Below the pieces are notes generated by a model. The model did no database searches and was not told the origin of the DNA. It saw nothing but the letters and a program-made list of their open reading frames with translations. 64,000 nt of DNA from an uncultured Clostridia bacterium (GTDB lineage Bacteria; Bacillota; Clostridia; Christensenellales; UBA1242), in contig CAKVOP010000001.1 in NCBI GenBank assembly GCA_934793215.1, forward strand, positions 138,871 to 202,870. Reading direction: 5' to 3'. The position numbers and the translations under genes are program-made. Position 1 is the stretch's first letter. Each line of letters begins with the position of its first letter. Of the stretch, positions 14,307-29,015 are shown piece after piece.

Positions 14307-15073
14307 TTGTTATTCTCCTTTTTCTTTTGAGTTATTTTAAATAATTTATATAAACTTCTATCTTCTTTCTTTTTGGTTATAAGTTCAAAAATCTCTGCAA
14401 ATACAAACACCAACAACAGCCCCATTAGTCCCATTACATAAGTATTAAGCCAAGGAAGATCTGGAAATGGCAACTGTTCTAAATACATTGAATTACAACT
14501 TTTAAGCCCAAATATTTTATATATCCCATTTATAACAAAGCCATTAATCAAAAAGAACACCAACCCGCAAAAACACGAAAAGCAATTTGTTAGGTCTATT
14601 TTAATAAATCCGCCAACCAAAATATACAAACATCCATATACCATCATTACATGACTTAGAAGACCTCTTAAAGAAAACCAATTTGCAAGAGTTGGATTAC
14701 TTGCGTAATTTTCGTTAAATATGATACCTATTAAACCACACACAACACCAGCATAAAAAGTGAATTCATACAAAACTTTTGCAAATTTTGAATTTGAATT
14801 TTTTAAAAAAGCACATATCACCAAAAAACACATTAAAACATTGCAAGGATAAATTGGCAATAAAAGCGTTGATTCCACAACCGCTGTTCCTTTATTAACA
14901 AAAAAATCAACATATACTGTGCTAAAATGGATCAACACTGTAAGTATGGCGGCTACTTTTAAAACAAACTTTTTCCATTTTTCTTCTTTTATAAACAACT
15001 TGCAAAGTATTAATCCAGCAATAGTAAGAATAGCTGAAATCACCATAAATAAAATGTGTTGCGTGTTAAACAT
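14303..15073 (-). CDS. Integral membrane protein, YwaF/TIGR02206-like (paralog)
   Basis: Polytopic. LPIYPCNVLMC motif at the position equivalent to LPFHICTLMC in the neighbour. Confidence 0.65.
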   Translation of the reverse strand: MFNTQHILFMVISAILTIAGLILCKLFIKEEKWKKFVLKVAAILTVLIHFSTVYVDFFVNKGTAVVESTLLLPIYPCNVLMCFLVICAFLKNSNSKFAKVLYEFTFYAGVVCGLIGIIFNENYASNPTLANWFSLRGLLSHVMMVYGCLYILVGGFIKIDLTNCFSCFCGLVFFLINGFVINGIYKIFGLKSCNSMYLEQLPFPDLPWLNTYVMGLMGLLLVFVFAEIFELITKKKEDRSLYKLFKITQKKKENNK

Positions 15074-15294
15074 TATTTACCTCTATCTACCAATTTTTCT
15101 TTTGTTGTCTCATTACATAATAGTAAGTGTATACTTCATTTTTTCTTGAAAATTAAGATTGCTTTAGCGCCAAGTGTAATTATTGTAGAAATTAAAACAA
15201 ATTCTTTTTTCTCCAGTTCATTGTACTTGTCCTCAATTTTTTTGCTATTGGTGTATAACCTATAACTTCTGTTTTATACATTTTTTATCTTCTA

Positions 15295-15548
15295 TTATTT
15301 AAGATTTTTTTTATACTCTCTAATAATATTTAAAATATCTTCGTACTTTAAAGTTTCTATCTGCTCTTCTTTATTAACCAAAGAAACATTTTCACCAACA
15401 AGAAAGCACTTTATTCCAACTTTTGTTGATGGGGCATAGCCGTATTTTGAAAGTTTTTACACAAAAGCGTAAAAATCCCTTTTGTAAATTCATCTTCATT
15501 CATTGGAAGCAGAGTTCCGTCTAAATCAAATATAATGGCTTTTAACAC
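15295..15548 (-). pseudogene. HAD-superfamily hydrolase pseudogene (frameshift plus internal deletion)
   Basis: Minus strand reads (V)LKAIIFDLDGTLLPMNEDEFTKG (HAD motif I DxDGT) and hits a stop after 45 codons. A second frame continues KLSKYGYAPSTKV...CFLVGENVSLVNKEE..., which is HAD C-terminal-like. The total is far shorter than an intact HAD enzyme. Confidence 0.6.
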
Positions 15549-16138
15549 ATTTACCTACATTATACAATGTATATATTATCACATTTTTATAAGATGCGGC
15601 AACATAAATTATTTCCTCTTTACTTAAAATTTTAAAATTACTAATTTATTTTCACACTGTTCATTATCTTTGTCTAAAAATAAAGTTTTTTTCATTAATC
15701 TTCACAACTAAGTTCTTTTACTTTTACAACCTGACACTCTATTATCCTACACACCACCAAACAGCACAACTCCGCATTCGAAATGATATCAAAATGTCAA
15801 GACAAATGTCAAGACATTTTAATTAAAAACATAGGTCAAAGTTAAATAATAAGTTTTAATATTTTTTAAAGCCACCTATCAAAATCAGTATGAAAATAAA
15901 TATGGCAGTAGTGATTAGATATTAATGATATAACACTTTACTACAAAAGTCCACAAAGTTCTAAGCCGTTTTAAAGCGTTATGGAAAGAAAAAGAATGAA
16001 TGAAAATATGGGTTTAATACATTTAGGTACATAGGGTTTTGGAAATTGTGTACCTAAATAAAAAAATACTAGCGAAAGTGCTAGTATTTATGGGTGGTTT
16101 TGGGGTGTGGGCACAAGTTTGGAGCAAAGGTTCGTGTG

Positions 16139-16183
16139 TTGGTAAGGCGGGGGTCACGGGTCCGATTCCCGTCACCAGCTCCA
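16139..16183 (+). pseudogene. 3' half of tRNA-Thr(GGU) (anticodon loop to CCA), direct repeat of 12325-12369
   Basis: TTGGTAAGGCGGGGGTCACGGGTCCGATTCCCGTCACCAGCTCCA differs from the intact gene only in the anticodon-stem strand (GGCGG vs GGTGG). The upstream 40 nt look like a badly decayed 5' half. Confidence 0.8.
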
Positions 16184-16899
16184 TTATTAAAAACCCTTGA
16201 AATCCTAGTAAAATAGGCACTTTCAAGGGTTTTTCTTTTGCAAAAAATTTTGCTTAATTTTAGGCTAAAAATACAAAACGCGAACGTAAACTGCTCCAAA
16301 AAGTGTAGTAAAATTGCATAAAAAGACCGAGAGTTCAATTTTCAAACTCTCGGTCTAATTCTTTCTAAATCTCCCTAAAACTAGTGTAATAGGTGTAAAC
16401 TAGTGTAGTAAATTTTACATTTCAAAATCTTTTTCTAGTTTGTGTCTTCTTTCTTTTCGCTATTTTAGCATTTCTTTTAACATTAAATCAAAATTTTCAT
16501 CAGACAAATTTCTAGATTAGATTTCTTTTCTTCTTGTTCTTCTTTATTTTGATTGTTTTGCTTTCTTTAAATCTCATTTTCATTTAGTCTTTTGTTTAAA
16601 CGATTTGTGCTTTTCTTTACATAATCACAGAAACTAGAAAAACAATTGCAACAGCCGGTGTAAATACATTTGCAATTTCTAAAGCGGTGATTATACGCTT
16701 GTTATCAAAGTAACAAAAACACAAGAGAAAAGTAGTAAGGCGCCAAAAGATATAAGATTCTATGTTAAGTGGAAATAATGTAAATTATGAAAAAGACTGC
16801 AATTAAGCAGTCTTTTTTGTGTTATTTTTATTTAGTTTTTTAAATTAGTTTTAAAATTAAAAAATTATCATGGTTAGCATTTATATAAAAATGATTAAT

Positions 16900-17634
16900 T
16901 TAGATTTTTTCGCAAGGTTCAGCCGTTTGGGTATGTGATGGCAAATAAAGGTGACTACTAAACATTTCCGTAATAAAATTATAAACGATTGAAAAATTCT
17001 TTACATTTTCTAGTTTATAATCCCAAAATTTGGAATTTTCTGGTTTTGCATGTGAATTTTCTGGGTTAAGGCAACAAGTTTGAACTCCGGTTTGCTTTAC
17101 ACATAAATCATTTGCACCATTTCCAAAGTAGAGTGCATGACTTGCGGGTAAATTGTTGTCAATCAAAATGTCTTTAATGTGGGCAACCTTGCCTTTGCTG
17201 TTTTTAAGTTTAGCAAAGGTATTTTGGTTTGTCCATTCTATATCAAAGCCATACACGCCATCAAAAATGTCATTATCTTCGCTTAAAGCGCTTTTTATTA
17301 CAGGAACAATGCTATCGCTTACAATGTATAGTTTATAGCCATTTTCATGGAGAGAACGAAGGCATTCTCTTGCCAAGGGCATTAATTGTGTCTTTTCGGC
17401 AATATCTTTAAATTCTTCTTTTGTTATTTGAGCGTTTTTTATAACCATTGAACACATACGCATGCCAATCTTTAAAAATCTAGGAGAATTTACAAGTTTG
17501 CTGTTTAGTAACTTTTTACAAATGCGTTGAGAAACACCCGCACGCCTCAAAAGTGAAATATAGGGGTTGGGAGTGTTAAAGGTTAGAGTTCCGTCAAAAT
17601 CAAATATTACAACCTTGTCTGTGTTAAAACTCAT
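16900..17634 (-). CDS. HAD-superfamily hydrolase
   Basis: Motif I VVIFDFDGTLT at the N-terminus and a later GNGANDL (motif IV-like). 244 aa. Confidence 0.75.
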   Translation of the reverse strand: MSFNTDKVVIFDFDGTLTFNTPNPYISLLRRAGVSQRICKKLLNSKLVNSPRFLKIGMRMCSMVIKNAQITKEEFKDIAEKTQLMPLARECLRSLHENGYKLYIVSDSIVPVIKSALSEDNDIFDGVYGFDIEWTNQNTFAKLKNSKGKVAHIKDILIDNNLPASHALYFGNGANDLCVKQTGVQTCCLNPENSHAKPENSKFWDYKLENVKNFSIVYNFITEMFSSHLYLPSHTQTAEPCEKI

Positions 17635-18346: not shown

Positions 18347-18481
18347 AAATTAAATCTTGCTTAAAAAGAGAGTTGTCTCTTCAAAGCAAGATTTTTTGTT
18401 GCTTTAGCTATGATAAACAAGGTAACAACTTGCATTTTTACCCATAAAATGTGATAGGGATACTTGCAATGGAGAAAAGCA

Positions 18482-19246
18482 ATGGGTAAAATTTTAAATA
18501 CATCATCATTATCAGCAAAATACACGCTTCCCGACATGTCAGAGCGTGAGATAAATATAAACAGCAATACAACCGCCACGGAAAATATGACAACTTCATT
18601 TGAAAAAGTATTATCTAGCGCCAAGGCCTTTGGGTTTCCGGGGGAATCAATTAAAATCACACTATCTTTAAATAATAAAAGTGAATTTGACATAACAAAT
18701 GTTCATATAAAAGACTCTCTTTCGGGTGCAACATTTCAAGAAGGTAGTTTAGAGATTGACAGGACACCGCATGCTGACTTTAATGCCACAACTGGATATG
18801 CCTTGCCAGAAGTGATTAATGCGGGGCAAAGTGTTGAGATAACTTACAACATTGATATTGACGACCCTCACACATCCGACATAATAAATTTACTTTCAAG
18901 TATATCTTACACGGTTGAGGGCACCGAAGACTTGCAAGAAAACACTAATGTAGTCAATATACAAGTAGAACTGGCAAACATAGTCATCACCAAAACCGCA
19001 AGCAAATCGGTTGTTATTAAAGGGGATACTATTACTTTTGATAATGTAATTAAAAATAATGGGAACCTCGAAGCGACTAATGTAAAATTTACTGATGTAA
19101 TTCCAGAAGGGGCTACTTTTGTTGCAGGAAGTGTTACGATTGATAATCAATCAATGCCGGATGCAGACCCAACGCAGGGGATTAGTCTAAACAACCTAAA
19201 TGTTGGTGGTGAAATAAAGGTATCATTTGATGTTAAGGTGTCGTAA
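18482..19246 (+). CDS. DUF11 (conserved repeat domain) protein, probable spore/cell-surface component
   Basis: Two repeats of the DUF11 pattern (ITLSLNNKSEFDITNVHIKDSL..GATFQEGSLEID and ITKTASKSVVIKGDTITFDNVIKNNGNLEATNVKFTDVIPEGATFVAGSVTIDN). GGAG SD 7 nt before the ATG at 18482. Confidence 0.75.
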   Translation: MGKILNTSSLSAKYTLPDMSEREININSNTTATENMTTSFEKVLSSAKAFGFPGESIKITLSLNNKSEFDITNVHIKDSLSGATFQEGSLEIDRTPHADFNATTGYALPEVINAGQSVEITYNIDIDDPHTSDIINLLSSISYTVEGTEDLQENTNVVNIQVELANIVITKTASKSVVIKGDTITFDNVIKNNGNLEATNVKFTDVIPEGATFVAGSVTIDNQSMPDADPTQGISLNNLNVGGEIKVSFDVKVS

Positions 19247-19530
19247 TGGAAAAAACTTTAAGATTTTTTTCAAGAGTAGACTGCACAGTTGATGGAAGTG
19301 ATTTATCTTTTCAAAGCAATGAAGTTGAAATAAAAGTTATTGAAGAATATGTTATTTTCCAAGATTCAATCAAAATTGGAGCAGATTGTTTTGAGGAAAA
19401 AGGTGACTTCGAATTTGCGAGAACACAACCTTATTACGCAAAATGTTGCATTAAAGCGTGCGAAGTGTGCGATTTTGCAAAATATTTAGAAAGCATAATT
19501 TTGCTGTTAATCGTGCACTATTTGAAATAA
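19246..19530 (+). CDS. Small Cys-containing hypothetical protein (coupled to the DUF11 gene)
   Basis: ATG overlaps the stop of the upstream gene (TAATG). 94 aa with a CCIKACEVC cluster. Confidence 0.5.
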   Translation: MEKTLRFFSRVDCTVDGSDLSFQSNEVEIKVIEEYVIFQDSIKIGADCFEEKGDFEFARTQPYYAKCCIKACEVCDFAKYLESIILLLIVHYLK

Positions 19531-19560
19531 AAAATTAAAAAAATAACAATTGAGGTTTTT

Positions 19561-20814
<1,254 letters not shown>

Positions 20815-22056: not shown

Positions 22057-23118
22057 ATGGGACTTTTTAATTTTGTAAAAAAACAATTGCTTTCTGTCAT
22101 TGAATGGAATGACAATTCAAAGGACACCCTTGTTTATAGATTTAAACTCGAAAAACGAGAAGAAATCATGAATAGTTCGACATTGGTTGTTCGCCCATCA
22201 CAAGTGGCTTTATTTGTTCACAAAGGTCAAGTTTGTGATGTTTTTGCACCGGGGACATATAAACTTGCAACAGAGAATATTCCAATTCTTACCAAGATTT
22301 TGTCGCTCCCAACAGGGTTTAATAGTCCAATTAAAGCTGAGGTTTATTTTATAAACACAAAGCAAATGACTGGCATTAAATGGGGCACACAAAATCCAAT
22401 TATGATGCGCGATAACGATTTTGGGAATGTTAGAATTCGTGCGTATGGTGTATATAGTTACAAAGTAAACGATCCTAAAAAGTTTATGGAAGAAATGTTT
22501 GGTACAAACGAACTTTACACAACTGCTGATGTGGGCGCTCAAATGAAATCAGTGCTTTTGCAAGGATTTGCTGATGCTCTTGGTGAAGGCAAGTTTAATG
22601 CTCTTGACTTGGCTGCAAACTATAAAGAACTTGGAAGCATGATTGTTGAGAAGAACTCAGACGAGTTTGCAAGATTTGGACTTAAACTTTGCTCTGTTGT
22701 TATTGAAAACATTTCTCTTCCAGAAGAGGTAGAAAAGGCACTTGACGAACGCACAAAAGTTGGTGTTATGGAAGACAAAGTTGGCACTTATACTCAACTT
22801 CAAGCCGCACAAGCACTCCGCGATGCAGCTCAAAATACAAGCGGTGGAAATCTCGCTGGTCTTGGCGTAGGCCTTGGTGCTGGCGTGGGCATCGGGAATG
22901 TTTTTGCTGACGCACTTGCTTCTGCAAAAGATAAGCCAAAAGAGAGTGGGAAACAAGGCACAAAAGAGTGTCCAGTTTGTCACGCTTCAATGCGTGCGAC
23001 AGCAAAGTTCTGCCCAGAATGCGGAAACAAAATGGCAACTACAAAGCATTGTCCAAACTGCGGAAGCGAAGTTAAGTCTACAGCAAAATTCTGCCCAGAA
23101 TGTGGTGAAAAATTATAA
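22057..23118 (+). CDS. SPFH/band-7 domain protein with a C-terminal double zinc ribbon (YdjI/COG4260-like)
   Basis: N-terminus MGLFNFVKKQLLSVIEWNDNSKDTLVYRF is typical of the YdjI/'virion core protein-like' SPFH family. C-terminus has CPVCHA..FCPECG and CPNCGS..FCPECG. Confidence 0.8.
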   Translation: MGLFNFVKKQLLSVIEWNDNSKDTLVYRFKLEKREEIMNSSTLVVRPSQVALFVHKGQVCDVFAPGTYKLATENIPILTKILSLPTGFNSPIKAEVYFINTKQMTGIKWGTQNPIMMRDNDFGNVRIRAYGVYSYKVNDPKKFMEEMFGTNELYTTADVGAQMKSVLLQGFADALGEGKFNALDLAANYKELGSMIVEKNSDEFARFGLKLCSVVIENISLPEEVEKALDERTKVGVMEDKVGTYTQLQAAQALRDAAQNTSGGNLAGLGVGLGAGVGIGNVFADALASAKDKPKESGKQGTKECPVCHASMRATAKFCPECGNKMATTKHCPNCGSEVKSTAKFCPECGEKL

Positions 23119-24176
23119 TGGCGACTGCTAAAAAGAAAGTGTCATCAAAGTGCCCAGGTTGTGGTGGAAACCTTTTGTTCTCGCCCAATAGTCAAGATTT
23201 GGTGTGTGAAAAATGCTTGGCACATGTTGGAATTGAAAAAAATAATGATATTCCGCTTCATGTTTACCAAATAGGCAAAAATTCAAAAGATAATAGTGAT
23301 TGGCAAGCGATTGGACGCTCGTTTAGATGTAAATCTTGTGGTGGTCAAGTATCATTGTCTGGACTAGAAATCACTAAAATTTGTCCATATTGTGGAAGCA
23401 CATATGTGAGTGAAGTAGAGTCCTTGCCTGGATTAAAACCAGATTGTGTTATTCCATTCGCTTTTGATAAATCTGTCGCATTGCAAACGTTTAAGGAAAA
23501 AGCGAAAAAAAAGAAATTCTTGCCGGGGACATTTAAAAAATCTTTACCAGAAAGCAAGATATATGGGTTGTATATTCCATGTTTTTCGTTTGATGCTGAT
23601 GCATATTCAACCTATAAGGGTGTTCTTGAAGAAAATTACACTACGACAGATAGAGAAGGAAAAACTATTGTTGAAACTAGACCTTTTCCAATTTCTGGGT
23701 CAGTAAATCTTAATCTTAAAAATGTAGTAATTGAAGCAAGCCAAAAAATGACGCAATCAGAACTTGGCTCAATACTACCTTATAGGCATAACGAAGCGTA
23801 TAAATTTGATGAAGGTTTTTTGAGAGGATTTTATGTGGAACATTACAGCGATTCTCTTGATGAAAGTCATGATAAGGCTCGAAATGTTATGAATAGCGAA
23901 ATTAGGCGCAATATTTTGTCTCAATATCATTATGATAGAGTTCGCTATCTTGACATTGATTCAAATTATTCAAACGAGCATTATCTTTACAAACTTTTGC
24001 CAGTATACAAGTTTGAATACACCTACAAAAAGAAAAAGTATCTCACATGCATGAATGGTCAAACGGGAGAACTACAAAACAACATGCCAAAAAGCGGTTG
24101 GAAAATTTTTGGTCTAGTATTGGGAATTCTTGTGCCAATTATACTTTTCGTACTTTTGTTTATATTTATAAATTAA
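23118..24176 (+). CDS. Zinc-ribbon membrane protein (YdjG-like)
   Basis: ATG overlaps the upstream stop (TAATG). CPGCGG..CEKC and CKSCGG..CPYCGS ribbons. C-terminal TM (IFGLVLGILVPIILFVLLFIFI). Confidence 0.65.
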   Translation: MATAKKKVSSKCPGCGGNLLFSPNSQDLVCEKCLAHVGIEKNNDIPLHVYQIGKNSKDNSDWQAIGRSFRCKSCGGQVSLSGLEITKICPYCGSTYVSEVESLPGLKPDCVIPFAFDKSVALQTFKEKAKKKKFLPGTFKKSLPESKIYGLYIPCFSFDADAYSTYKGVLEENYTTTDREGKTIVETRPFPISGSVNLNLKNVVIEASQKMTQSELGSILPYRHNEAYKFDEGFLRGFYVEHYSDSLDESHDKARNVMNSEIRRNILSQYHYDRVRYLDIDSNYSNEHYLYKLLPVYKFEYTYKKKKYLTCMNGQTGELQNNMPKSGWKIFGLVLGILVPIILFVLLFIFIN

Positions 24177-24194
24177 TTTTTAAAAGGAGAAAAA

Positions 24195-24647
24195 ATGAAT
24201 AGAATTGAAAGAAATAAAAAAGCCCTTATTGGTTTGTCTATTGGAATCATTGTGTTAGGCGTTATTTTCCAAGCCGTAGGTATCATGCTTACAGTGTTTG
24301 GTGGTAGAGGGCTTGCTCAATCAGGTGCAAAGGCAGGGGCGATAGTCGAACTAGTTTTTGGTATCATAATGATTTTGCTTGGTCTTGTCGGTGTTTGCTT
24401 TGGAATTGTTACGACATGGACAGGAAGTGCACTAAAAGCAATACAAGGTTCTATTGCCGAAGATAACCTTGGGAAAGGCACAGTTAATATGCACAAATGT
24501 CAAATTTGTGGGGCGGAAATTTTAGGTGATGAAACTTTTTGCCCAGTTTGCGGAAATAGTTTGACAGGGGAAAAGACTTGTCCAAATTGTGGAGCCGAGG
24601 TTGGAGATCACGATAGAAATTGCACAAAGTGTGGTAAAGAACTGTAA
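24195..24647 (+). CDS. Small 2-TM protein with C-terminal zinc ribbons
   Basis: Two hydrophobic spans, then CQICGA..FCPVCG and CPNCGA..CTKCG. GGAG SD. Confidence 0.65.
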   Translation: MNRIERNKKALIGLSIGIIVLGVIFQAVGIMLTVFGGRGLAQSGAKAGAIVELVFGIIMILLGLVGVCFGIVTTWTGSALKAIQGSIAEDNLGKGTVNMHKCQICGAEILGDETFCPVCGNSLTGEKTCPNCGAEVGDHDRNCTKCGKEL

Positions 24648-25535: not shown

Positions 25536-26303
25536 TTAATCTTGTGAAGCTTCGCTTTTGAGAGGTTCGCTTTCGTTATCAGTGGTTAATGTTTTTTCAA
25601 GCGTTTCATTATTTTGAATGCCGTTATTTTCATATTCAACGTTTGAATTGTTTTTGCTTTCTTCTACAACAATTAAATGCTTTTGATTTTTATCTGCCTT
25701 GTCTTTTGGCTTTTTAGCAGTTTTCTTATCTTTATTTGAATGGAATAAACTTAAAAACTTTGCAAATCGCATAATGATTGCTTCTGCATGATCCATTGAG
25801 TAGCGTTTCATAAAGGCCTTTCCAGAAATGGTTATGGCTGCTATAACTGCCGATACAAGCGAGGCAATCACGATTCCCCAAAATCCAGTTATTTTGTTTG
25901 TGATAATTGCACTTGTAACGGTTGCTCCTGCCGCACCCGAAAGAATACCGCATACATCACCAACAATATCACCAAATATACTTGCGACCCTATCAGCATT
26001 TTTTTTCAGTTTTATAGCGTCTTTTGCACCTCGCACCTTTTTAGACGCCATTGCCCTGAAAGGTTTCATGTCACAAGCGGTGATCGCAACGCTTAACATA
26101 TCTGCTACTATTGCTATAAAAACGAAAACAAGTATCACAACTATTGACACAGCGATTCCTGCACTTGATAAAGATATTTCGCTTAATACACCAAAGCACA
26201 TGCAGATTGCAAATGAGATTGCAAGCACTGCCAGTGGCCACCTAATTGCAGAATGATTTTTGACTTTTCCCTTTACTTTCTTTTTCCTCGGGCTGGGGTT
26301 CAT
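25536..26303 (-). CDS. Polytopic membrane protein (possibly DUF21/CNNM-like TM domain) with a hydrophilic C-terminal tail
   Basis: AAGGAG SD precedes the ATG at 26303 (MNPSPRKKK...). The ORF-track ATG at 26333 lies inside a 5'-UTR hairpin. About 4 TM spans. The family assignment is only a gestalt impression. Confidence 0.55.
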   Translation of the reverse strand: MNPSPRKKKVKGKVKNHSAIRWPLAVLAISFAICMCFGVLSEISLSSAGIAVSIVVILVFVFIAIVADMLSVAITACDMKPFRAMASKKVRGAKDAIKLKKNADRVASIFGDIVGDVCGILSGAAGATVTSAIITNKITGFWGIVIASLVSAVIAAITISGKAFMKRYSMDHAEAIIMRFAKFLSLFHSNKDKKTAKKPKDKADKNQKHLIVVEESKNNSNVEYENNGIQNNETLEKTLTTDNESEPLKSEASQD

Positions 26304-26472
26304 GTAAGATGCTCCTTTTAGGGGAGTTTCCATTCAAATAACCAGTGCTTGAATGGAAACTCCCGCTTTAAATTTATATGAATTTCAAAGAATTTCGCGT
26401 TACTTTTATGCGAAATGTACTTATAGATATATATTAGCACATTTTTACCAAAATTTCAAGAATTTGTGGAAC

Positions 26473-27056
26473 AAAAAAGAGTCCCTGATGAGACTCTTTT
26501 GAAGACAGCATTATAAGTAAACCTTGTGTCATAGGTTCGGTCGGATTTCCCGTCTTCGCACTGTTCGTCACCGAAGCCAGCAGTTTCCTTTTAAGCGAGG
26601 AGCAACACCGAATCGCCACTCAGCACACACTATAATCCCTATAATGCCTGCAAATGCAACAGTCTAGAAGTTTTCCTTAACACCAATCTATGTTATTCCC
26701 TTGTTTTGCAATTATAGTTTCAAAGGCAAGGCGAGATTTGTTCTCGCGCGCGAATAAACCTCGATGAAACCTTATCCCCATATAATCACGCAAAGTAGGC
26801 TACGCTGCACACGACTTTTACCGCAATGCAGGTTCTCCTGGAGAGTGGAAAAATAAATTTTGCACCCTATCAGGTCTCCACGAAAATTGGGGCATCTGCT
26901 ATATGCCGTTATAGCTCGCCCAATAATCTTAACTCCCAGCACCAGCCCCAGTTTGGGCAACCAAAGCAAGCACCAGAAACTTCACAGATATGCCAATCGA
27001 CGCCATAAAATTTCGTCTTCCTAACATGACAAGATGACTAGAATACTGCATCTTCT
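26473..27056 (-). ncRNA. Candidate large (~580 nt) structured non-coding RNA, class unknown
   Basis: Own promoter (27063-27091) and own intrinsic terminator (26473-26500). Locally GC-enriched. Only 60-65 aa ORFs without SD. Multiple local hairpins. The ends are predicted, not measured. Confidence 0.55.
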
Positions 27057-27062
27057 ATATAA

Positions 27063-27091
27063 ATTATAGCATATCCATTTAAAAAATTCAA
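27063..27091 (-). promoter_or_regulatory. Sigma-A type promoter driving the candidate ncRNA
   Basis: Minus strand: TTGAAT (27091-27086), 17-nt spacer, TATAAT (27068-27063). Confidence 0.65.
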
Positions 27092-27188
27092 GTGTGGTAA
27101 ATAAAGTTGATAAAAATCATAAAATTTTTAAAAAAACTATTGAATAAATCTTTCTAATATATTAAACTAAAACTACAAAAGAGGTATT

Positions 27189-29015
27189 ATGACAACTGAA
27201 TCCCCAAAACAAATTACAATAGAGAACCTTTTAAAGGAATTTGATGATGTGGTCGCCATGCATGGCGGAATACCACGCGACTTATGGGGGATAGATTGTC
27301 CTCAAACATTGAGGGAGCAAATCCAAGCACTTCCTAAAAAAGTTGAATTTGAAGAATATGGCAAAGGTAAAGTTAGACTCCCAAATGGAGATGTAATAGA
27401 TGACCTTCGACACCTTGAATTTATAACAGTAGATCCACAATCTTGTAAAGATATGGATGATGCAATATGTTGTGAGATTGCGAAAAATGGCGATTATATT
27501 TTATATACTGCTATCGCAGATGTTCCAAGATATTTTGATTTGACGGAAGATATTGCAAATGGTGACTTGAACAGCATTGGGCAGGTGTATTTTAATGGCG
27601 GGTATACAATGTATAGCCCATTTAAAGCTTATAATATTTTGCCAGAAGAGTTGAGTGACAACCTTTGCTCTTTAAAGGCAGGCGAAGACAGGCTTGCTTT
27701 TGTTACAAGAATCGTGATTGATCCTGTGACAGGCAAGCAGAAAGGTGAGCCCAAAATTATGGAAGCACTTGTAAAAAGTAGGGCAAAACTCTCTTATAAC
27801 GAGGCTCAAGCCATTGTTGACAGCCAAATGTCAAAAGTTAGAAGCGAAAATGCTAATGAAGTTGTTATTGGACAGGTTTTGATAGGACAAATGGTTGCTG
27901 ATTCAATAAGAAATGGATTTGCTAGCCGTGACATGGTTCGTTTCCCTGATGAAGAAGAAAGAAGCATTAGCATTGAAGACGGACAAATAAAGGTAGAAAT
28001 AGAAAAAAGACTTCCTTATCAAGATGTTGTTGAGGCATTTATGATTATGACAAACGAAGCAAACGCCCAATTTGCTCGTGAGAAGAAGCTAGATGTCATT
28101 TATAGAGTGCACGCATCTCCAAACAGCAACAATGGTGGAGAAGATATTCTTTCTCTTGTAAGACTTTTACAAATTATGCCTCTTCATGGATTCGAAGAAA
28201 GTATTGAGTCTATCTCACAAGTTACACCAGGAACATTCAATCGAATATTCGACCTTGTTAAAAGTGAAAATGGGGCAAAAAATGAAATATACAAAAAGTT
28301 TCTGTCTCGCATCCAAGCAAGAGCAGAAAGTTCATTGGATATTCCAAAATCAATCTGTTATGACTATATAAGCGGACGTAAGTATGAATACTCTCACTTT
28401 GGGCTTCAAAGTGATTGCTACATGCATATCACATCACCAATAAGAAGAATAACTGACTATGTTAATATAAAAAATATTCTTGCTTTTGTGCAAGGCAAAG
28501 AGCCTCTTTTGGCAGAAATAGTGGCAAAAGTTGCCATGCAAGCAAACGCCACTTGCGCTGAAGTCGACAAAGCGGGAATGGATTTCATGGAGATTGTTGC
28601 TGGTCATTACTACGGAGAGGAACGCATTGTAAGTGCAACTCTATGTGATTTTGATTATAGCAAAAACGGATACTGCATATTTGAAGATGATGCGACAGGA
28701 TTTAGAATAAATGTTCCAATGGAAGAATTTTCTCACGGGCTTTATGTCGAGCAAGAAAAATGGGGATTTACTTTATATGGAGATGTTGTTGCTGCTCTAG
28801 GGCAAAAAGAAACACTTTTAGTTCAAGTTAATGATGATTTGACAATAAGCGGTCATGTCATTAATGCAAGAAGCCATCATATTGCACAAGAAGGTGGGAA
28901 ATTTCATTCTGAACGCGAAAGATTTGAAAAACGCAAACTTTCCAAAAAGAAAGCAAAAATGAGGGATAGGGCGATGCATTTGCACTATGACCTTGATCCA
29001 AGTGAAAGAGAATAA
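27189..29015 (+). CDS. RNB-domain exoribonuclease (RNase II/R family)
   Basis: RNB catalytic signatures DPQSCKDMDDAI and HFGLQSDCYMHITSPIRRITDYVN. 608 aa. Confidence 0.85.
   Translation: MTTESPKQITIENLLKEFDDVVAMHGGIPRDLWGIDCPQTLREQIQALPKKVEFEEYGKGKVRLPNGDVIDDLRHLEFITVDPQSCKDMDDAICCEIAKNGDYILYTAIADVPRYFDLTEDIANGDLNSIGQVYFNGGYTMYSPFKAYNILPEELSDNLCSLKAGEDRLAFVTRIVIDPVTGKQKGEPKIMEALVKSRAKLSYNEAQAIVDSQMSKVRSENANEVVIGQVLIGQMVADSIRNGFASRDMVRFPDEEERSISIEDGQIKVEIEKRLPYQDVVEAFMIMTNEANAQFAREKKLDVIYRVHASPNSNNGGEDILSLVRLLQIMPLHGFEESIESISQVTPGTFNRIFDLVKSENGAKNEIYKKFLSRIQARAESSLDIPKSICYDYISGRKYEYSHFGLQSDCYMHITSPIRRITDYVNIKNILAFVQGKEPLLAEIVAKVAMQANATCAEVDKAGMDFMEIVAGHYYGEERIVSATLCDFDYSKNGYCIFEDDATGFRINVPMEEFSHGLYVEQEKWGFTLYGDVVAALGQKETLLVQVNDDLTISGHVINARSHHIAQEGGKFHSERERFEKRKLSKKKAKMRDRAMHLHYDLDPSERE

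What the first reader, a model, noticed from the sequence alone, without database searches (positions are those of the whole stretch)
26473..27056. Orphan ~580-nt GC-enriched, ORF-free transcription unit: candidate large structured ncRNA of unknown class
**Seen in sequence**
- On the minus strand, a sigma-A type promoter (TTGAAT, 17 nt, TATAAT; 27091-27063) is followed ~580 nt later by a textbook intrinsic terminator (AAAAGAGTCTCATCAGGGACTCTTTTTT, ending ~26473).
- The interval is visibly GC-richer than its surroundings. By hand count, line 26941-27000 is 30/60 G+C, versus 7/60 for flanking line 27121-27180.
- It contains only 60-65 aa ORFs in mixed frames, none with an SD.
- Local hairpins are frequent: CAGG-AGAA-CCTG, GCGAG-AACAAAT-CTCGC, GCTATA-ACGGCA-TATAGC and AAGATG...CATCTT near the 5' end.
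- GGAAGAC near the 5' end can pair with GTCTTC just before the terminator, which would close the whole molecule.

**Established knowledge**
- Firmicutes harbour rare, very large ornate ncRNAs (ROOL ~580 nt, OLE ~600 nt, GOLLD larger) whose functions are largely unknown.

**Inference**
- This is a stand-alone structured RNA gene, not a leader. The downstream gene has its own promoter (TTGAAA, 17 nt, TAATAT) after the terminator.
- I cannot assign the class from memory.
Basis: partly seen in the sequence, partly recalled or inferred. Interest (0 to 1): 0.78.

Follow-up and report, generated by a model that had tools for sequence, protein, structure and literature searches.

The report
OLE RNA gene with oapA partner
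The ORF-free, GC-rich unit is a full-length member of the already described OLE RNA class, a ~600-nt membrane-associated bacterial RNA, sitting just upstream of its usual membrane-protein partner gene oapA, so it is real and well formed but not a new class.

Summary
A sigma-A promoter with an extended -10 (27091-27063), about 585 nt with no conserved ORF at 44% G+C in a 33% window, and an intrinsic terminator (26500-26473) lie on the minus strand as described.

The class is known. Rfam's OLE model (RF01071) matches 26486-27070(-) end to end at 361.5 bits (gathering score 50, E 1e-102). ROOL, GOLLD, raiA and HEARO do not match.

On an alignment with 26 homologs, 82% of consensus pair cells are standard pairs, against about 43% in slid controls. 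106 of 151 pairs show changes on both sides.

The next gene (25536-26303, -) is oapA. A homolog lies directly downstream, on the same strand, in 103 of 122 OLE loci retrieved.

The closest genome is an uncultured gut Clostridia MAG from a Hadza sample.

The copy belongs to a low-scoring subtype found in at least 32 gut MAG species. This subtype lacks the P13 hairpin (primary OapB site) and the A-rich L4 loop (dimer bridge B1). It keeps P1, P3, the L5/L6 and L9 dimer contacts, its own promoter and its own terminator. It resembles the published "variant 1".

Verdict: already known; low interest.

The parts
27063..27091 (-). Sigma-A type promoter of ole: TTGAAT, 17 nt, TG-extended TATAAT. The predicted start is about 27056/27055.
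   Evidence: 10 of 12 matches, TG present. Conserved position and sequence in relatives.
26501..27056 (-). OLE RNA, from the 5' strand of P1 to the 3' strand of P1. The Rfam match, including flanks, is 26486-27070.
   Evidence: RF01071, 361.5 bits, E 1e-102, model positions 1-616 of 616. Covariation.
27050..27055 (-). P1 5' strand, GAAGAU. It pairs with GUCUUC at 26506-26501 and closes the molecule.
   Evidence: helix 1: 88.9% paired, 4 of 6 pairs changed on both sides; 6 of 6 pairs in 44 of 54 homologs. GAAGAU/UCUUC alternates with GAAGGU/CCUUC within the clade.
26501..26506 (-). P1 3' strand, GUCUUC.
27022..27033 (-). P3/P3.1 5' strand, CUUGUCAUGUUA. This long-range helix encloses P4-P9 (domain 1). 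Its partner is UAACAU-A-GAUUGG at 26695-26683.
   Evidence: same register as in relatives. Family mean duplex energy is -14.3 versus -9.3 kcal/mol for shuffled controls. In this AU-rich copy the energy alone (-6.8) is not better than control (-7.1).
26683..26695 (-). P3/P3.1 3' strand.
26999..27017 (-). P4 hairpin, GACG-AAAUUUUAUGG-CGUC. The loop L4 lacks the usual UAAAA(A)U run. The name P4 is assigned by position and by the loop in homologs.
   Evidence: (helix 2, 99% paired).
26933..26979 (-). P5/P5.1 hairpin with loop UGCCCAA. The preceding AUCUGUGAAG and following AGUUAAG carry the conserved k-turn residues.
   Evidence: helix 3, 94.8% paired. K-turn location from PMC9723947 and PMC12286853.
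26882..26928 (-). P6/P6.1 hairpin with loop AACGGCAU. GGCA is complementary to UGCC of L5.1.
   Evidence: helices 4-5.
26837..26874 (-). P7 hairpin.
   Evidence: Poorly aligned by MAFFT in the comparison (helix 6, 45% paired).
26805..26831 (-). P8 hairpin.
   Evidence: helix 7, 91.9% paired.
26699..26796 (-). Long P9 arm with a self-complementary apex, CGCGCGCG. The core is GCGC instead of the usual GGCC.
   Evidence: (helices 8-11).
26507..26678 (-). 3' domain: P10, P11, P12/12.1/12.2, P14/14.1 (GUGA tetraloop) and the GGGAAAUCC element. The P13 hairpin is absent; its site is 26603-26606.
   Evidence: model insert of 19 nt reduced to 1 nt; alignment columns 501-519; helices 12-19.
26473..26500 (-). 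Intrinsic terminator directly after P1.
   Evidence: -13.5 kcal/mol. Equivalent terminators occur in nearly all members of the clade.
26431..26459 (-). Promoter-like site for oapA: TTGAAA, 17 nt, TG-extended TAATAT.
   Evidence: 9 of 12, TG present. Conserved in L001.
26320..26367 (-). Long hairpin of 19 base pairs (17 consecutive) in the oapA leader, ending 4 nt before the Shine-Dalgarno sequence AAAGGAG. Function unknown.
   Evidence: -27.5 kcal/mol, z -3.7. Conserved in L001 with one G-U-compatible change, while the neighbouring spacer has diverged.
25536..26303 (-). oapA, encoding OLE-associated protein A: 255 aa, four hydrophobic segments, a basic N-terminus and a basic loop.
   Evidence: homolog directly downstream in 103 of 122 OLE loci. 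(hydropathy and charge). (CNNM/DUF21 hit at 25.3 bits, below the 28.4 cut-off).

Best explanation
The interval is the ole gene, encoding an OLE (ornate, large, extremophilic) RNA. The adjacent gene is oapA, encoding its membrane-protein partner. The host is an uncultured anaerobic gut Clostridia bacterium.

**Shown here.**
- The RNA has its own sigma-A promoter and its own intrinsic terminator.
- It fits the OLE covariance model end to end.
- Its helices are supported by compensatory changes, including the long-range helices P1 (5' end with 3' end) and P3/P3.1 (enclosing P4-P9).
- It keeps the conserved loops used for homodimer contacts: L5.1 UGCC with L6.1 GGCA, and a self-complementary L9 apex.
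- It keeps the k-turn residues.
- It lacks the P13 hairpin and the A-rich L4 loop.

**Inferred from published work on Halalkalibacterium halodurans and Clostridium OLE RNAs.**
- The roughly 585-nt transcript folds into two domains joined by P3 and forms a homodimer.
- It is bound and held at the cell membrane by an OapA dimer.
- The ribonucleoprotein helps the cell cope with stresses such as cold, short-chain alcohols, excess Mg2+ and poor carbon sources.
- OapA is related to the CNNM/CorB/MpfA Mg2+-transporter membrane domain, so the mechanism I favour is modulation of divalent-cation or membrane homeostasis by the RNA-OapA complex.
- This copy lacks the primary OapB site, so the complex probably works without OapB, as proposed for the reduced gut clades.

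The exact biochemical activity of OLE RNA is unknown in any organism.
For: **Identity as OLE.**
- Rfam RF01071 scores 361.5 bits against a gathering score of 50, E 1e-102, covering the full model. It is the only hit in the region apart from a sub-threshold chance match.
- 27-sequence alignment: 82.2% of pair cells are standard pairs, against 42.5-48.5% when partners are slid. 106 of 151 pairs change on both sides. The covariation score is 0.414 against 0.10-0.14.
- Invariant sequence blocks are shared with homologs, including GCAGUAUUCUAGUCA, UGAAGUU, GUAGC, CUAG.CUG, GGAAAC, GGGAAA.CC and UUUA.

**Long-range helices.**
- P1 covaries: GGUGG/CCACC, GAAGA/UCUUC, GAAGG/CCUUC.
- P3 complementarity is kept with different sequences in different relatives.

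**Partner gene.**
- An oapA homolog lies directly downstream on the same strand in 103 of 122 OLE loci.
- The protein has four hydrophobic segments and a basic loop, and a CNNM-like hit.

**Host and clade.**
- The closest genome is an uncultured Clostridia MAG from a Hadza gut sample.
- The same subtype, with promoter and terminator, is found in 32 species-level gut MAGs.

**Function.** Published roles and structure: PMC12265935, PMC11332333, PMC12286853, PMC7936274, PMC9723947.
Against: - There are no expression, localisation or binding data for this organism.
- Two features that are near-universal in canonical OLE RNAs are missing: the P13 hairpin and the A-rich L4 loop. This lowers the score from 506-554 bits for canonical members to 361 bits.
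- The Pfam CNNM hit for OapA is below its curated cut-off.
- NCBIfam and the PDB sequence search gave nothing for OapA.
- The P3 duplex in this AU-rich copy is not more stable than shuffled controls.
- The usual neighbouring genes of the H. halodurans cluster are not present.
- The biochemical function of OLE RNA is unknown, so the mechanism is a hypothesis borrowed from the literature.
Confidence: 0.96

Rival explanations
1. A decaying OLE relic. On this reading, loss of P13 and of the A-rich L4 loop means the RNA is no longer functional.
For: The Rfam score is 361 bits against 506-554 for canonical members. The P13 hairpin is absent. The L4 A-run is absent.
Against: - The same architecture is kept in at least 32 species-level genomes, with promoter, terminator and an intact oapA.
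- Compensatory changes occur within the clade, for example P1 GAAGAU/UCUUC alternating with GAAGGU/CCUUC.
- Invariant blocks are retained.
- A published survey reports reduced variants lacking the OapB site in gut clades (PMC11332333).
Confidence: 0.03
2. A cis-acting 5' leader or attenuator of oapA. The long structured RNA would mainly control read-through into oapA rather than act in trans.
For: ole and oapA are adjacent on the same strand. In some relatives (L039, L114, L007) no terminator separates them. In H. halodurans the cluster is one polycistronic RNA (PMC12265935).
Against: - A strong terminator directly follows P1, and a conserved promoter-like site lies in front of oapA here and in L001.
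- The RNA is a full OLE by sequence and structure.
- OLE RNA is known to be an abundant stable RNA that binds OapA protein (PMC12265935).
Confidence: 0.02
3. A degraded protein-coding gene, or another large RNA class such as ROOL, GOLLD, raiA or HEARO.
For: Short ORFs of 60-65 aa are present.
Against: - There is no conserved ORF. Stop-free stretches vary widely in length across 109 homologs (median 86 aa, maximum 188 aa; 69 aa here).
- Substitutions follow base-pairing rather than codons.
- A permissive Rfam scan of 26300-27250 returns only OLE plus one sub-threshold chance hit.
Confidence: 0.005

Closest known systems
Full-length OLE RNA (Rfam RF01071), e.g. Halalkalibacterium halodurans, Clostridium acetobutylicum, C. 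botulinum
   Same: - Size of about 585-600 nt.
- All conserved sequence blocks.
- Helices P1, P3-P12 and P14.
- L5.1/L6.1 complementary loops and a self-complementary L9 apex.
- K-turn residues.
- oapA immediately downstream.
- A Bacillota anaerobe as host.
   Different: - No P13 hairpin, which is the primary OapB site.
- L4 lacks the UAAAA(A)U run that forms the A-A dimer bridge B1.
- The L9 core is GCGC rather than GGCC.
- It has its own promoter and terminator instead of sitting in a long polycistronic cluster.
- The neighbours are unrelated to the isoprenoid and DNA-repair genes typical of the H. halodurans cluster.
- The Rfam score is about 150-190 bits lower.
OLE 'variant 1' of Fernando and Breaker 2024 (PMC11332333), most common in the gut order TANB77
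   Same: - Uncultured gut Clostridia known only from MAGs.
- The OapB-binding nucleotides at P13 are missing.
- The covariance-model score is intermediate.
   Different: - The paper defines variant 1 by score against its own model and by shorter P7, P8 and P9. Here P7-P9 are close to the Rfam consensus length.
- The relatives carry NCBI labels of Clostridia, Christensenellaceae or Catabacter. I could not check GTDB placement.
- The paper's text does not mention the L4 change. I could not see its figures.
OLE 'variant 2' (RF39 clade)
   Same: A reduced OLE found in gut symbionts.
   Different: Variant 2 lacks P7 and P8 entirely. Both are present here.
ROOL and GOLLD large ornate RNAs
   Same: Large, ornate, homo-oligomeric bacterial non-coding RNAs of unknown biochemical function.
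   Different: No sequence or structure match. Those RNAs are phage- or prophage-associated and form nanocages. They have no OapA partner.

Membership tests
OLE RNA (RF01071) | Covariance-model score above the gathering score over the full model length | tested here: met
   361.5 bits against 50, E 1e-102, model positions 1-616 of 616.
OLE RNA (RF01071) | Highly conserved sequence blocks (about 25% of positions nearly invariant) | tested here: met
   About 160 invariant columns across 27 sequences, including GCAGUAUUCUAGUCA, UGAAGUU, GUAGC, CUAG.CUG, GGAAAC, GGGAAA.CC and UUUA.
OLE RNA (RF01071) | Ornate secondary structure supported by covariation | tested here: met
   82.2% of cells paired against about 43% when slid. 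106 of 151 pairs change on both sides. 0 of 500 shuffles reach the observed values. The structure was taken from the model alignment of this sequence, so the paired percentage is somewhat favoured.
OLE RNA (RF01071) | Long-range helices P1 (5' end with 3' end) and P3/P3.1 (enclosing P4-P9) | tested here: met
   P1. P3: supported across the family and in the same register here, although weak energetically in this copy.
OLE RNA (RF01071) | oapA gene immediately downstream on the same strand | tested here: met
   A homolog lies directly downstream in 103 of 122 OLE loci, and 25536-26303 is that gene here.
OLE RNA (RF01071) | Host is a Bacillota anaerobe or extremophile | tested here: met
   The nearest genome is an uncultured Clostridia MAG from a human gut sample. 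Relatives are all gut Clostridia MAGs.
OLE RNA (RF01071) | Dimer contacts: L5.1/L6.1 complementary loops and a self-complementary L9 loop | tested here: met
   L5.1 is UGCCCAA and L6.1 is AACGGCAU, with invariant G/C positions. The L9 apex is CGCGCGCG; 96 of 102 homologs have a palindrome there, against 50% of shuffled loops. Dimerisation itself was not tested.
OLE RNA (RF01071) | A-rich L4 loop (A-A bridge B1 of the dimer) | tested here: not met
   100 of 109 loci carry AAAA in L4. This copy and its clade carry GAAAUUUUAUGG or GAAGUAAUAG instead.
OLE RNA, full-length type | P13 hairpin with GNRA loop and single-nucleotide bulge (primary OapB site) | tested here: not met
   The model's 19-nt insert is reduced to 1 nt. 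It is absent from alignment columns 501-519 in the clade. The same junction is found in 32 genomes. The P14.1 GNRA loop (GUGA), the weak secondary OapB site, is retained.
OLE RNA (RF01071) | K-turn at the base of P5 (OapC site) | tested here: inconclusive
   The UGAAG and AGUUAAG residues and the AUC/GAU helix are present, but the bulge is UGU rather than GAU. The fold and OapC binding were not tested.
OLE RNA (RF01071) | Membrane localisation through OapA, RNP formation and stress phenotypes | not testable with these tools
   Experimental properties known from H. halodurans (PMC12265935).
OapA | Small membrane protein with four transmembrane helices and a conserved basic cytoplasmic cluster, related to the CNNM/MpfA membrane domain | tested here: met
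   Four hydrophobic segments. The basic N-terminus has 8 K/R in 22 residues, and the segment 66-112, which includes the basic loop, has 10 K/R. tblastn gives 31-79% identity to the gene downstream of OLE in other genomes. The Pfam CNNM hit is 25.3 bits, below the 28.4 cut-off.
ROOL, GOLLD, raiA, HEARO | Match to the family covariance model | tested here: not met
   No hit even at E up to 1 in 26300-27250.

The most novel reading that the evidence does not exclude
The gut-Clostridia subtype to which this copy belongs, found in at least 32 species-level MAGs, may be a distinct and not yet described architectural form of OLE.

- It has lost two things together: the OapB-binding P13 hairpin, and the 'highly conserved' A-A dimer bridge in L4.
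- In this lineage the L9 kissing core has changed from GGCC to GCGC.
- ole is transcribed as a self-contained unit running promoter, P1...P1, terminator.
- oapA has its own promoter and a conserved leader hairpin.

If so, it would be a natural minimal OLE particle with a rewired dimer interface and with RNA and protein expression uncoupled.
Probability: 0.3. Interest if true: 0.35.

Novelty: already known. Interest (0 to 1): 0.14.

Why it matters
OLE RNA is one of the largest and best-conserved bacterial non-coding RNAs without a known biochemical function, so any instance interests RNA biologists. This one adds no new class. Its practical value is twofold.

- **Annotation.** It assigns 26473-27091 and 25536-26303 as an ole-oapA module in an uncultured human-gut Clostridia genome.
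- **Natural deletion experiment.** A clade that dispenses with P13 and with the L4 A-A bridge shows which parts of the RNA are not essential. It could give smaller constructs for structural and functional work on the OLE-OapA complex.

Tried and rejected
- **The search for related loci with the single OapA protein.** It found only the one closest genome. I switched to a conserved OLE DNA motif.
- **NCBIfam.** It has no usable OapA model; the only hit was a spurious GrpE match at 15.8 bits.
- **PDB sequence search with OapA.** No hit at E up to 1.
- **Regex test for the L5.1/L6.1 loops across all loci.** My position windows were too tight (24 of 109 matched), so I discarded it. I relied on the invariant columns of the 27-sequence alignment instead.
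Tested across homologs and rejected.
- **A functional link between ole and the divergent RNB-domain exoribonuclease (27189-29015).** That gene neighbours OLE only in the closest relative, so I did not pursue it.
- **The sRNA41 hit at 26313-26420.** At 30.8 bits against a gathering score of 45, it is the oapA leader hairpin matching by chance.
- **OapB, OapC and MpfA.** I did not search for these genes. They are usually unlinked to ole, and only 64 kb of the genome is available, so absence would mean nothing.
- **Large protein database searches, structure prediction and the metagenome scan.** Not run, because the answer did not depend on them.

Full report

- The promoter TTGAAT-17-TATAAT (27091-27063) matches 10 of 12 positions and carries a TG extension.
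- The hairpin AAAAGAGUCUC-AUCA-GGGACUCUUUU (26500-26475) folds at -13.5 kcal/mol, z -2.7, and runs into a U tract ending near 26473. The consensus scanner missed it because the stem absorbs part of the U run.
- The interval is 44.3% G+C in a window of 33.0%, the 98.7th percentile for its length.
- No ORF exceeds 65 aa.

**Identity.** A scan of the whole window against Rfam gives one non-tRNA hit: RF01071, OLE RNA, at 26486-27070(-). The score is 361.5 bits against a gathering score of 50, E 1.4e-102, covering model positions 1-616 of 616. A permissive scan of 26300-27250 finds nothing else except a sub-threshold chance match in the downstream leader. ROOL, GOLLD, raiA and HEARO are therefore excluded.

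**Related sequences.**
- An exact 47-mer from the RNA hits one species-representative genome: an uncultured Clostridia MAG from a Hadza gut sample, CAKVMD010000002.1. Its OLE is 96.8% identical, its OapA 79% and its neighbouring RNB-domain protein 76%.
- The invariant motif TGCAGTATTCTAGTCA retrieved 120 further OLE loci from Bacillota genomes.
- The nearest are gut MAGs labelled Candidatus Onthoplasma (Christensenellaceae in NCBI taxonomy), Catabacter and "uncultured Clostridia", at 72-76% identity.

**Covariation.** I projected the consensus structure from the model alignment onto a 27-sequence MAFFT alignment.
- 82.2% of pair cells are standard pairs, against 42.5-48.5% when partners are slid by 1-3 columns.
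- 106 of 151 pairs show changes on both sides.
- The covariation score is 0.414 against 0.10-0.14, and no shuffle out of 500 reaches any observed measure.
- The weakly supported helices (P7 and the apical part of P9) lie in length-variable regions that MAFFT aligns poorly.
- The criterion "relatives encode an intact protein" is not met either. Stop-free stretches in 109 homologs have a median of 86 aa (69 aa here, maximum 188 aa) and vary widely in length.

**Long-range helices not in the Rfam structure line.**
Its partner is GAAGAU at 27055-27050, immediately after the predicted transcription start.
- This P1 helix covaries across the family: GGUGG/CCACC, AGUGG/CCACU, GAUGG/CCAUU, GAAGA/UCUUC (helix 1). 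It is 6 of 6 paired in 44 of 54 sequences.
- Within the clade it alternates between GAAGAU/UCUUC and GAAGGU/CCUUC.
- The local hairpin AAGAUG...CAUCUU performs no better than shuffled controls across homologs.
- A second long-range helix, P3/P3.1, joins 27033-27022 to 26695-26683 and encloses P4-P9. Complementarity is kept with different sequences in relatives. The family mean is -14.3 against -9.3 kcal/mol for shuffled controls, although in this AU-rich copy the energy alone is unremarkable.
- Helix names follow the published model by position (PMC12265935, PMC12286853, PMC9723947). I could not see the figures, so the names are inferences.

**Partner gene.** The ORF 25536-26303(-) has a Shine-Dalgarno sequence AAAGGAG and starts MNPSPRKKK.
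- It has four hydrophobic segments, a basic N-terminus and a basic loop.
- It has a sub-threshold CNNM/DUF21 hit of 25.3 against 28.4 bits.
- tblastn finds a homolog directly downstream of OLE, on the same strand, in 103 of 122 loci, from Clostridia to Bacillaceae. This is OapA. Its relation to the MpfA/CNNM Mg2+-transporter membrane domain is published (PMC11332333).
- NCBIfam and the PDB sequence search gave nothing useful.

**Subtype.** Canonical OLE RNAs score 506-554 bits with the same model. This copy and its nearest relatives score 356-390. Two discrete differences account for much of the gap.
- *P13 is absent.* The P13 hairpin, the primary OapB-binding site in H. halodurans (PMC7936274), is missing: the model's 19-nt insert is 1 nt here, and alignment columns 501-519 are empty in eight sequences. 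A pattern that spans the P13-less junction finds 32 species-level genomes, all uncultured animal- or human-gut Clostridia MAGs. The P14.1 GNRA loop (GUGA), described as a weak second OapB site, remains.
- *L4 is changed.* The P4 loop lacks the UAAAA(A)U run, which forms the "highly conserved" A-A bridge B1 of the cryo-EM dimer (PMC12286853). 100 of 109 loci have the run. Apart from L032, the exceptions are this same clade, which carries GAAGUAAUAG or, here, GAAAUUUUAUGG.
- *Other dimer contacts persist.* L5.1 UGCC and L6.1 GGCA are retained. The P9 apex is self-complementary, with a GCGC core instead of GGCC. The k-turn residues are retained with a different bulge.
- *Relation to published variants.* The subtype resembles "variant 1" of Fernando and Breaker (PMC11332333), described for gut clades that largely lack OapB and OapC. 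P7-P9 are not obviously shortened here, and I could not check whether the L4 change has been drawn.

**Transcription.**
- Across the clade an extended -10 (TGnTATAAT) sits 7-9 nt before P1, and an intrinsic terminator follows P1 directly. A self-contained ole unit is therefore the rule in this group. This contrasts with the polycistronic cluster of H. halodurans (PMC12265935). More distant relatives (L039, L114, L007) have no terminator before oapA.
- In the window and in L001, oapA has its own conserved promoter-like site (26459-26431).
- It also has a long leader hairpin of 19 base pairs, 17 of them consecutive (26367-26320, -27.5 kcal/mol). The hairpin is conserved, with one G-U-compatible change, while the adjacent spacer has diverged. 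Its role is unknown.

**Context.**
- Neighbours are a divergent RNB-domain exoribonuclease, a phosphoketolase, two FAD-dependent oxidoreductases, an SPFH/zinc-ribbon protein, further zinc-ribbon proteins, and collagen-repeat and DUF11 proteins.
- None belongs to the usual OLE gene neighbourhood. The RNB gene accompanies OLE only in the closest relative.

**Mechanism.**
- *Shown:* an independently promoted and terminated, covariation-supported OLE RNA next to oapA.
- *Inferred from the literature:* the RNA dimerises, is bound and held at the membrane by OapA, and the particle helps the cell adapt to stress. A link to Mg2+ or membrane homeostasis is the most concrete lead, through OapA's kinship with MpfA/CNNM (PMC11332333, PMC12265935). 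The missing P13 implies independence from OapB.
- The biochemical activity of OLE RNA remains unknown everywhere.

**Verdict.** The feature is real, and its coordinates and anatomy were described accurately. The class is already known and detectable with the standard Rfam model, and reduced variants from gut clades have been published. Interest is low. The residual novelty lies in the combined loss of P13 and the L4 A-A bridge in a clade of at least 32 species.

Noticed in passing
window 26320-26367 (-), also L001: A long hairpin of 19 base pairs, 17 of them consecutive (-27.5 kcal/mol, z -3.7), lies in the oapA leader and ends 4 nt before the Shine-Dalgarno sequence. It is conserved in the closest relative with one G-U-compatible change, while the spacer around it has diverged. 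Other clade members have short leaders without it. It may be a stabiliser or a regulatory element. It also produced a sub-threshold Rfam sRNA41 hit (30.8 against 45 bits).
   Followed up: partly
window 26999-27017 (-); loci L001, L008, L039, L066, L077, L108, L113, L123-L148: The P4 loop of this clade lacks the UAAAA(A)U run present in 100 of 109 OLE loci. That run forms the A-A dimer bridge in the cryo-EM structure. The loss coincides with loss of P13.
   Followed up: partly
window 26740-26755 (-) approx., P9 apex: The self-complementary P9 apex is CGCGCGCG (GCGC core) in the window and in L001, where most OLE RNAs have GGCC. Other relatives use GUCGAC, GUAC, UGCGCA or AGCU. The identity of the kissing loop drifts while self-complementarity is kept.
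   Followed up: partly
window 16102-16186 (+), within the ORF-poor stretch 15073-16900: A tRNA- or tmRNA-like 3' fragment (GGGGGTCACGGGTCCGATTCCCGTCACCAGCTCCA) gives a 10.2-bit tmRNA hit against a gathering score of 47 and no ARAGORN call. It may be an attachment-site remnant of an integrated element.
   Followed up: partly
window 27189-29015 (+): A 608-aa RNB-domain exoribonuclease lies divergent from ole. It is well below the RNase R and RNase II equivalog cut-offs, and no cold-shock or S1 domain was detected. It neighbours OLE only in the closest relative.
   Followed up: partly
window 22057-24647 (+): Three consecutive genes encode zinc-ribbon proteins. One is fused to an SPFH/Band-7 domain and one to a membrane segment. 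Function unknown.
   Followed up: no
window 18464-20814 (+): DUF11 and collagen-triple-helix-repeat proteins lie side by side. They are reminiscent of spore-surface (exosporium-type) proteins.
   Followed up: no
L053, L057, L067, L069, L097 (record titles): Some loci carrying the OLE motif come from MAGs labelled Actinomycetota, Fibrobacter or Deltaproteobacteria. This agrees with the published remark that non-Bacillota hits probably reflect binning errors or transfer.
   Followed up: no
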